Positions 16,871-16,950 of a DNA stretch of 64,000 bases are shown here, piece after piece. The position numbers and the translations under genes are program-made. Origin of the DNA: the human T2T-CHM13v2.0 reference genome, Homo sapiens. The notes under the pieces were generated by a model, which was given only the letters and a program-made list of their open reading frames with translations, did no database searches and was not told where the DNA came from. Location of the stretch: the NCBI RefSeq assembly GCF_009914755.1, contig NC_060927.1. One strand, given 5' to 3'. Every line of letters begins with the position of its first letter. Within the stretch, counting starts at the first letter, position 1.

Positions 16871-16950
16871 CTAATGGCATGTTTTATTTCTTTCTGTTTT
16901 AGGTAAGCACATTAATCATTCCAGTGTAATCAGACTGCATCAAGGTAAAA
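16871..16950 (+). promoter_or_regulatory. Candidate recursive splice site (AG|GT) with a 42-nt RS-exon (16903-16944)
   Basis: CTAAT branch motif at 16871, tract TTTTATTTCTTTCTGTTTT, AG at 16901-16902, GTAAGC at 16903-16908, and a downstream donor AAG|GTAAAA at 16944/16945. Confidence 0.55.

What the first reader, a model, noticed from the sequence alone, without database searches (positions are those of the whole stretch)
16871..16950. Complete recursive-splicing (ratchet point) architecture in unique intronic DNA
Seen: CTAAT (branch motif, A about 28 nt upstream of the acceptor), an AG-free 19-nt pyrimidine tract, then TAG directly followed by GTAAGC. A second donor, AAG|GTAAAA, lies 42 nt later. 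The 42-nt segment has stops in two frames and is open in phase 1 (KHINHSSVIRLHQ). Known: vertebrate recursive sites are a 3'ss abutting a reconstituted 5'ss, with a downstream RS-exon donor needed for exon definition. They occur in very long introns of neuronal genes such as CADM1, CADM2, ROBO2, HS6ST3, PDE4D, OPCML, NTM, NCAM1 and ANK3. Inference: this may be a zero-length exon used to remove a giant + strand intron in steps, with optional in-frame inclusion of 14 codons. I have not identified the host gene, and the site may already be catalogued.
Basis: partly seen in the sequence, partly recalled or inferred. Interest (0 to 1): 0.8.

Follow-up and report, generated by a model that had tools for sequence, protein, structure and literature searches.

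The report
Known CADM2 recursive splice site RS2

Summary
The motif is in the sequence exactly as described. It has a CTAAT branch motif, a pyrimidine tract, TAG|GTAAGC, a 42-nt segment and the donor AAG|GTAAAA.

It is the published CADM2 site RS2 with its recursive exon RE2. Window 16903 maps to GRCh38 chr3:85,511,857, which Boone et al. 2025 call the "RS2 exon start", and they give RE2 as 42 bp. Window 16944 maps to hg19 85,561,048, an annotated intron start in the supplement of Zhang et al. 2018. The same coordinate logic recovered RS1 with its 73-nt exon.

The composite motif is rare locally. It is 1 of 62 AG|GTRAG sites in 528 kb of strand, an expectation of about 0.01 per window strand. 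Genome-wide the motif alone would not be proof.

The main exon 1 ends in AAG, so the rebuilt donor AAG|GTAAGC pairs better with U1 than RE2's own donor (-9.5 against -6.8 kcal/mol). The alternative first exon ends in AGT and rebuilds a weaker donor (-5.3). This matches the published skipping and inclusion.

Two side results:
- RE2 is open in the exon 1 frame.
- The alternative first exon lies in an LTR12C that I read as antisense to CADM2.

Verdict: real, correctly interpreted, already known.

The parts
16871..16875 (+). Candidate branch-point motif CTAAT (yUnAy), with the branch A at 16874, 28 nt before the acceptor G
   Evidence: Sequence read. The scan found it as the only YTNAY motif 18-40 nt upstream. 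Its use as a branch point is inferred, not shown.
16882..16900 (+). Polypyrimidine tract, 17 of 19 pyrimidines, AG-free
   Evidence: It has 17 of 20 pyrimidines in the 20 nt before the AG, which ties for the highest of the 62 AG|GTRAG sites examined.
16901..16902 (+). Acceptor AG of recursive splice site RS2
   Evidence: RefSeq annotates an exon starting at 16903 (hub table). The position maps to GRCh38 chr3:85,511,856|7, the RS2 exon start in Boone et al..
16903..16944 (+). Recursive exon RE2, 42 nt. It begins with GTAAGC, which becomes the intronic half of the rebuilt 5' splice site. It is open in phase 1.
   Evidence: Boone et al. give RE2 as 42 bp. Its end maps to the annotated hg19 intron start 85,561,048.
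16945..16950 (+). RE2's own (exon-definition) donor, AAG|GTAAAA
   Evidence: U1 duplex energy is -6.8 kcal/mol with 6 contiguous pairs.
9665..10299 (+). Alternative first exon of the minor-promoter CADM2 transcripts. It is GC-rich and ends AGT|GTAAGA.
   Evidence: Hub table. GC content is 72% and CpG observed/expected is 0.66. There is no ATG in the phase-1 frame after the last stop.
9071..10295 (-). Solo LTR12C that holds the alternative first exon. I read it as antisense to CADM2.
   Evidence: It is a dispersed repeat with 3,955 first-look candidates, and the best scored copies are 88-94% identical. The review's Table 1 lists LTR12C chr3:85,504,025-85,505,239 as a CADM2 alternative promoter. 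Orientation comes from the order of an AATAA-like motif, a degenerate start-site motif and U5-like repeats on the - strand. The left edge is taken from the published coordinates and was not measured here.

Best explanation
Window 16871-16950 is CADM2 recursive splice site 2 (RS2) with its 42-nt recursive exon RE2. It lies about 552 kb into the 767-kb first intron.

Proposed mechanism:
1. RE2 is first defined as an exon. Its strong 3' splice site (CTAAT branch motif, pyrimidine tract, TAG) and its own donor AAG|GTAAAA do this.
2. Exon 1, which ends in AAG and has already passed through RS1, is ligated to RE2. This rebuilds a donor, AAG|GTAAGC, at the junction.
3. The rebuilt donor pairs better with U1 than RE2's own donor. 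The second splicing step therefore uses it and removes RE2 together with the next 214-290 kb of intron. No trace is left in the mRNA.
4. When transcription starts instead at the minor first exon in the LTR12C 6.6 kb upstream, that exon ends in AGT. The rebuilt donor AGT|GTAAGC is weaker than RE2's own donor. Together with the published repression by the exon junction complex, this keeps RE2 in the transcript as an annotated exon.

Shown here: the anatomy, the identity with the published site, the intron phase and the relative U1 complementarity. Taken from papers: actual use of the site (sawtooth coverage, junction reads, reporters, the mouse site). Inferred: the branch point and the order of events on single transcripts.
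For: Anatomy.

Identity:
- hg19 to hg38 differs by 49,150 at the exon 1 end and at RS1.
- T2T minus hg38 is 65,046 at an independent AGGT candidate at window 7479-7482 (hg19 85,551,584).
- With that offset, window 16903 is hg38 85,511,857, Boone's 'RS2 exon start'.
- Window 16944 is hg19 85,561,048, the start of annotated CADM2 introns in the Zhang 2018 supplement.
- Boone et al. give RE2 as 42 bp and RE1 as 73 bp. I found RS1 within 30 nt of its predicted T2T place, with a 73-nt exon.
- RefSeq annotates exon 16903-16944 (hub table).

Mechanism. U1 duplex energies, in kcal/mol:
- exon 1 + RS2: -9.5, 7 contiguous pairs
- RE2's own donor: -6.8, 6 pairs
- alternative exon + RS2: -5.3, 5 pairs

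Literature (passages and named sections read, not whole texts):
- Boone 2025 bioRxiv reports a sawtooth with waypoints RS1 and RS2, transcripts ending in or containing RE2, and RE2-exon 2 junction reads. [quoted passage not shown]
- Blazquez 2018 (PMC6224609) used aCADM2 and mCADM2 reporters. Competition between the rebuilt and the downstream donor, and repression by the exon junction complex, decide inclusion.
- Moon and Zhao 2022 (PMC8797253) list mouse Cadm2 RS1 and RS2 and detected RS intermediates for Cadm2 sites by RT-PCR.
Against: No RNA data could be examined here. Use of the site rests on papers, and the founding paper (Sibley 2015, PMC4471124) is not held. I saw it only as cited by others.

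The Zhang 2018 candidate table does not list RS2. No row lies between hg19 85,551,584 and 85,697,268. This is probably because RS2 coincides with an annotated exon boundary, but I did not check their filter.

The step in coverage at RS2 could partly come from the internal promoter about 7 kb upstream.

Donor strength was judged by U1 pairing only, not by MaxEntScan or SpliceAI.

Conservation could not be tested with these tools.
Confidence: 0.93

Rival explanations
1. It is only an ordinary alternative cassette exon of the LTR12C-driven minor transcripts. Its GTAAG start is incidental. The coverage step reported at RS2 reflects transcription starting at the internal promoter, not recursive splicing from exon 1.
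For: RefSeq annotates 16903-16944 as an exon together with a first exon at 9665-10299 (hub table). The promoter lies only 6.6 kb upstream, so a sawtooth step could be confounded with it. The rebuilt donor from the alternative exon is weaker than RE2's own donor, which fits plain inclusion.
Against: Boone et al. reconstruct transcripts that join exon 1 to RE2 and report RE-containing junction reads. The mCADM2 reporter 'normally undergoes very efficient RS'. Mouse has a Cadm2 RS2, although LTR12C is primate-specific. The exon 1 + RS2 donor is the strongest of the competing donors.
Confidence: 0.05
2. It is a chance juxtaposition of splice-like motifs with no use in vivo.
For: The core YAGGTAAG is not enriched in the window. 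By my estimate several hundred such composites should occur by chance genome-wide.
Against: It is an annotated exon with exact coordinate identity to a published, experimentally studied site. It is the only one of 62 AG|GTRAG sites in 528 kb of strand with all features.
Confidence: 0.01
3. Besides acting recursively, RE2 is a genuine coding micro-exon of major-promoter mRNA. Its inclusion adds 14 residues just after the hydrophobic core of the signal peptide and yields a distinct CADM2 protein form.
For: Exon 1 has 61 coding nt, so intron 1 is phase 1. RE2 is 42 nt and open in that phase. It ends in the same base (G) as exon 1, so the downstream codon is unchanged. Boone et al. detect RE2-exon 2 junctions and a full-length transcript that contains RE2.
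Against: That full-length transcript also carries RE1, which has a stop in frame. Boone et al. treat RE-containing transcripts as intermediates or decay substrates. The rebuilt donor out-competes RE2's own donor. No protein evidence was seen.
Confidence: 0.07

Closest known systems
CADM2 RS2 / recursive exon RE2 (Sibley et al. 2015 as cited; Boone et al. 2025 bioRxiv 10.1101/2025.08.14.666599)
   Same: It is the same locus. The coordinates are identical after conversion (window 16903 = GRCh38 chr3:85,511,857), the exon is 42 nt, and it sits downstream of a minor promoter.
   Different: Nothing differs in the site itself. Added here: RE2 is open in the exon 1 frame, whereas Boone et al. speak of stop codons in the recursive exons. 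Their Figures S5 and S6 could not be seen.
CADM2 RS1 / RE1 (same intron, 273 kb upstream)
   Same: It has an AG|GT junction after a pure pyrimidine tract, a short RS-exon with its own donor, and a rebuilt donor made with the AAG end of exon 1.
   Different: RE1 is 73 nt, is not a multiple of 3, and has stops in all three frames. RE2 is 42 nt and open in phase 1. By U1 pairing, RE1's own donor (-11.9) is about as strong as the rebuilt one (-12.3), whereas at RS2 the rebuilt donor is clearly stronger. RS1 has no nearby promoter and is not in the hub's exon list for this window.
Annotated RS-exons repressed by the exon junction complex (Blazquez et al. 2018, PMC6224609), such as KPNA1 and the aCADM2 reporter
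   Same: The exon begins with a partial 5' splice-site motif. Inclusion or skipping is set by competition between the rebuilt and the downstream donor. The aCADM2 reporter comes from the rare CADM2 isoform that retains the RS-exon.
   Different: Most annotated RS-exons are constitutive. This one is cryptic from the major promoter and is included only in a rare isoform.
Drosophila zero-nucleotide ratchet points (Ubx; Duff et al. 2015, seen only as citations)
   Same: Long introns are removed stepwise at an AG|GT junction that rebuilds a donor.
   Different: The vertebrate sites are described as needing a downstream RS-exon donor for exon definition. This site has that donor at 16945.

Membership tests
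Vertebrate recursive splice site with RS-exon (Sibley type) | A 3' splice site (pyrimidine tract plus YAG) directly abutting GTRAG | tested here: met
   TAG|GTAAGC at 16900-16908, with 17 of 20 upstream pyrimidines and no AG.
Vertebrate recursive splice site with RS-exon (Sibley type) | Lies on the sense strand in a very long intron of a long, brain-expressed gene | tested here: met
   The hub table places the window inside CADM2 with no exon of the selected transcript. Exon 1 ends at T2T chr3:85,024,684, which is 552 kb upstream on the same strand. Boone et al. give the intron as 767 kb.
Vertebrate recursive splice site with RS-exon (Sibley type) | A downstream 5' splice site that defines a short RS-exon | tested here: met
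   AAG|GTAAAA lies 42 nt downstream with 6 contiguous U1 pairs. Such a donor is found at only 9.0% of random positions.
Vertebrate recursive splice site with RS-exon (Sibley type) | The donor rebuilt with the upstream exon is stronger than the RS-exon's own donor | tested here: met
   Exon 1 + RS2 gives -9.5 kcal/mol against -6.8 for RE2's own donor. This is U1 pairing only. MaxEntScan was not available.
Vertebrate recursive splice site with RS-exon (Sibley type) | RS intermediates: upstream exon-RS junction reads, lariats and sawtooth coverage | not testable with these tools
   No RNA data are available here. These are reported by Boone et al. for RS1 and RS2.
Vertebrate recursive splice site with RS-exon (Sibley type) | Conservation across vertebrates | not testable with these tools
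   No vertebrate genomes other than the window's own are held. Moon and Zhao list mouse Cadm2 RS2 at chr16:67,142,935 with RT-PCR support for Cadm2 sites. Orthology to this site is assumed from the order of the sites, not aligned.
Vertebrate recursive splice site with RS-exon (Sibley type) | The RS-exon carries a premature stop, so that inclusion triggers decay (typical, not strictly defining) | tested here: not met
   RE2 is open in the exon 1 frame (phase 1), whereas RE1 has an in-frame stop.
Annotated RS-exon (Blazquez type) | An annotated exon that starts with a partial 5' splice-site motif | tested here: met
   The RefSeq exon 16903-16944 (hub table) starts with GTAAGC.
Annotated RS-exon (Blazquez type) | Inclusion depends on the exon junction complex repressing the rebuilt donor | not testable with these tools
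   Reported for the aCADM2 reporter.

The most novel reading that the evidence does not exclude
Three points that I did not see made in the passages I read:

1. Unlike RE1, RE2 is not a poison exon in the major-promoter frame. Exon 1 ends in phase 1, and the 42-nt RE2 is open in that phase. Exon 1-RE2-exon 2/3 mRNA would therefore encode CADM2 with 14 extra residues right after the hydrophobic core of the signal peptide.

2. The human switch between RE2 skipping and inclusion appears to be a primate novelty laid over an RS site that mouse shares. The first exon that gives inclusion runs in antisense through a hominoid LTR12C and ends in AGT a few bases outside the LTR.

3. The region that Boone et al. 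call the main GWAS hotspot of CADM2 might then act through the balance between LTR12C-driven RE2-including transcripts and recursive removal.
Probability: 0.1. Interest if true: 0.4.

Novelty: already known. Interest (0 to 1): 0.12.

Why it matters
Recursive splicing is one proposed way for cells to remove introns of hundreds of kilobases in long neuronal genes. CADM2 is its best-studied human case. Boone et al. report that deleting the sister site RS1 lowers CADM2 expression and is associated with ADHD risk. They also say the minor promoter/RS2 region is the gene's main GWAS hotspot.

For the scan, this finding is a positive control. A reader without tools recovered a real, experimentally supported recursive site from sequence alone. 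It adds no new biology about the site's existence.

The side results are small, testable leads. They are the open frame of RE2, the antisense LTR12C origin of the inclusion-promoting first exon, and an intact full-length L1 15.5 kb downstream.

Tried and rejected
- Sibley 2015 (PMC4471124 and its DOI), Sibley 2016 (PMC5154377) and Sokol 2016 (DOI) are not held. What they say is taken from papers that cite them.
- The supplements of Blazquez 2018 hold no 'CADM2' (0 of 3 files). bioRxiv supplements are closed, so Boone's Tables S4 and S6 and Figures S5 and S6 (RE2 sequence, isoform census, stop codons) could not be seen. I did not try the supplements of the 2026 large-scale RSS paper, whose Table S3 compares RSS sets, because the tool description says none are held for papers added after August 2026.
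- The exact numbers 85561006, 85561007 and 85561008 are not in the Zhang 2018 supplement. The exon end 85561048 is there.
- My first strict pattern missed the site because of the G at 16896.
- A scan of the whole 767-kb intron as an empirical null was cut short. Only the first 200 kb plus the window could be used.
- Exons 2 and 3 of CADM2 were not found in T2T. They were not at the simple offset, not at that offset plus the L1 length, and not by a search for 27-nt or 150-nt open AG...GT exons in the fetched pieces. So I could not describe the protein context after RE2, nor test whether the L1 is missing from GRCh38.
- Rfam found nothing at gathering score in 9000-18000. No notable repeats or hairpins lie around the site.
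- The LTR12 start-site motif GCCAGCAGTGGC is not present within 2 mismatches at the expected place. Only a more degenerate version is there.
- A search for 'CADM2' with 'L1HS' gave one paper with nothing specific to this L1.

Full report
**Observation.**
- CTAAT lies at 16871-16875, with its A (16874) 28 nt before the acceptor G.
- A 19-nt tract at 16882-16900 has 17 pyrimidines. There is no AG between the branch motif and the acceptor.
- TAG|GTAAGC has its junction at 16902|16903.
- AAG|GTAAAA has its junction at 16944|16945.
- The 42-nt segment has stops in two frames and reads KHINHSSVIRLHQ in the third.
- The stretch is single copy in the window's own genome. A 201-nt query matched only itself. 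It has no notable internal repeats and no Rfam match.

**Is it more than chance?**
The bare core is not. YAGGTAAG occurs 7 times in the window against 4.41 +/- 1.89 expected, and 13 of 100 shuffles reach 7.

For an empirical null I added the first 200 kb of CADM2 intron 1 to the 64-kb window and read both strands, 528 kb of strand in all. A fuller scan of the intron was not possible.
- There are 62 AG|GTRAG sites. Three have at least 16 of 20 upstream pyrimidines and no AG.
- On the sense strand this is 1 of 32, the finding itself.
- Of the three, only the finding has a donor with at least 6 contiguous U1-complementary positions 25-150 nt downstream.
- At 80,000 random positions such a donor occurs at 9.0%, a YTNAY motif 18-40 nt upstream at 42.3%, and both at 4.0%.

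From the two decoys I estimate about 0.01 chance composites per 64-kb strand. That is unlikely here, but it still implies several hundred genome-wide. The motif alone would not prove function.

**What it is.**
The hub table places the window in CADM2 and lists an exon of non-selected transcripts at exactly 16903-16944. Boone et al. (bioRxiv 10.1101/2025.08.14.666599; abstract, sections 3, 5, 6 and 10, and passages read) describe two recursive sites in CADM2 intron 1. Their GRCh38 coordinates are:
- exon 1 end, 84,959,669
- RE1 start, 85,238,956
- RS2 exon start, 85,511,857

They give RE1 as 73 bp and RE2 as 42 bp.

The supplement of Zhang et al. 2018 (PMC6110456; one part of file 1 and passages read) gives hg19 values:
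- exon 1 end, 85,008,819
- RS1, 85,288,106
- annotated CADM2 introns starting at 85,561,048

Both shared points put hg19 minus hg38 at 49,150.

One of their candidate AGGT sites (hg19 85,551,584) is the AGGT at window 7479-7482. This fixes T2T minus hg38 at 65,046, only 9.4 kb from the finding. With that offset, window 16903 is hg38 85,511,857 and window 16944 is hg19 85,561,048. Both ends of the 42-nt exon therefore match the published RS2 exon to the base.

As a control on the method I read the window's own genome.
- Exon 1 ends at T2T chr3:85,024,684, an offset of 65,015.
- RS1 lies at 85,303,944|5, an offset of 64,988. It is the only AG|GTRAG in the 2 kb fetched there, and a 73-nt exon follows it.

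**How it works.**
Exon 1 ends in AAG. I compared donors by pairing with the 5' end of U1. The U1 motif is recalled textbook knowledge. Values are duplex energies in kcal/mol.

| Donor | Sequence | Energy |
|---|---|---|
| Exon 1 own donor | AAG\|GTAATC | -6.6 |
| Exon 1 + RS2, rebuilt | AAG\|GTAAGC | -9.5 |
| RE2 own donor | AAG\|GTAAAA | -6.8 |
| Alternative exon + RS2, rebuilt | AGT\|GTAAGC | -5.3 |
| Exon 1 + RS1, rebuilt | AAG\|GTGAGT | -12.3 |
| RE1 own donor | TGG\|GTAAGT | -11.9 |

From the major promoter, the rebuilt donor at RS2 beats RE2's own donor, so RE2 should be skipped. From the alternative first exon (9665-10299, ending in AGT), RE2's own donor wins, so RE2 should be kept.

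This is the published behaviour.
[quoted passage not shown] - In the aCADM2 and mCADM2 reporters the exon junction complex adds repression of the rebuilt donor.
- Use in cells is reported as a sawtooth with waypoints RS1 and RS2, as transcripts joining exon 1 to RE2, and as RE2-exon 2 junction reads.
- Mouse Cadm2 has RS1 and RS2, with RT-PCR support for RS intermediates at Cadm2 sites (PMC8797253, passages).

I could not examine RNA data, conservation or MaxEnt scores. The branch point is inferred.

**A caveat on the published evidence.**
An internal promoter 7 kb upstream could by itself raise intronic coverage near RS2. The junction reads and the mouse site argue against this as the whole story, since LTR12C is primate-specific.

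The Zhang 2018 candidate list has no row for RS2. This is probably because RS2 coincides with an annotated exon boundary. I did not verify their filter.

**Side results.**
1. The start codon of exon 1 is 61 nt before the donor, so intron 1 is phase 1. RE2 is a multiple of three, is open in that phase, and ends in the same base as exon 1. Inclusion of RE2 alone would add 14 codons in frame, just after the hydrophobic core of the signal peptide, with no stop. RE1 has an in-frame stop. Boone et al. speak of stop codons in the recursive exons. Their Figures S5 and S6 were not visible to me, so I cannot say whether they address this frame.
2. In the alternative first exon the phase-1 frame has no ATG after its last stop. 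RE2 is then probably 5' UTR in those transcripts.
3. The alternative first exon lies in a dispersed repeat. There were 3,955 first-look candidates, and the best scored copies are 88-94% identical. [quoted passage not shown] That corresponds to window 9071-10285.
4. I infer with moderate confidence that the LTR is antisense to CADM2. On the - strand the order is an AATAA-like motif, a degenerate version of the LTR12 start-site motif near 9485-9497, and then U5-like repeats (compared with the description). The start-site motif sits about 66% along the LTR. The RefSeq first exon would then start about 175 nt away from it, pointing the other way. Its donor lies 4-10 nt outside the LTR edge.

**Verdict.**
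The object is the already published and experimentally studied CADM2 RS2/RE2. Its value for the scan is as a positive control, and its novelty is nil. The open frame of RE2 and the antisense LTR12C origin of the inclusion-promoting exon are minor, testable additions.

Noticed in passing
window 9071-10299: The alternative first exon of CADM2 (9665-10299, + strand) lies almost wholly inside a solo LTR12C. From the motif order on the - strand, the LTR appears to be antisense to CADM2. The exon would then start about 175 nt from the LTR's own degenerate start-site motif and point the other way. Its AGT|GTAAGA donor sits 4-10 nt outside the LTR edge. A review already lists this LTR12C as a CADM2 alternative promoter. 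The antisense orientation is my inference.
   Followed up: partly
window 32470-38522 (+ strand): A full-length L1, 6,053 nt including a long poly(A) tail, lies in the sense orientation 15.5 kb downstream of RS2. Both reading frames are open (338 aa at 33375-34391 and 1,275 aa at 34455-38282). A perfect 18-nt target-site duplication flanks it at 32452-32469 and 38523-38540. These are signs of a young insertion. I could not establish whether it is absent from GRCh38.
   Followed up: partly
window 16903-16944 with G000:C3:85024624-85024684: RE2 is open in the frame set by the CADM2 exon 1 start codon (phase 1, 14 codons, downstream codon unchanged). RE1 carries an in-frame stop. The passages of Boone et al. 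that I read speak of stop codons in the recursive exons generally.
   Followed up: yes
window 32648-32674 (- strand) and G000:C3:85097809 (- strand): These are the only two other AG|GTRAG sites with a strong AG-free pyrimidine tract in 528 kb of strand. Both are antisense to CADM2 and neither has a downstream donor. The first lies inside the L1. I treated them as chance decoys.
   Followed up: partly
G000:C3 85,024,684 to 85,576,903 and beyond: The T2T minus GRCh38 offset drifts by small indels: 65,015 at the exon 1 end, 64,988 at RS1, and 65,046 at window 7480 and at RS2. Exons 2 and 3 are not at this offset in T2T, so a larger difference between the assemblies lies downstream of RS2. Its place is unknown.
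   Followed up: partly
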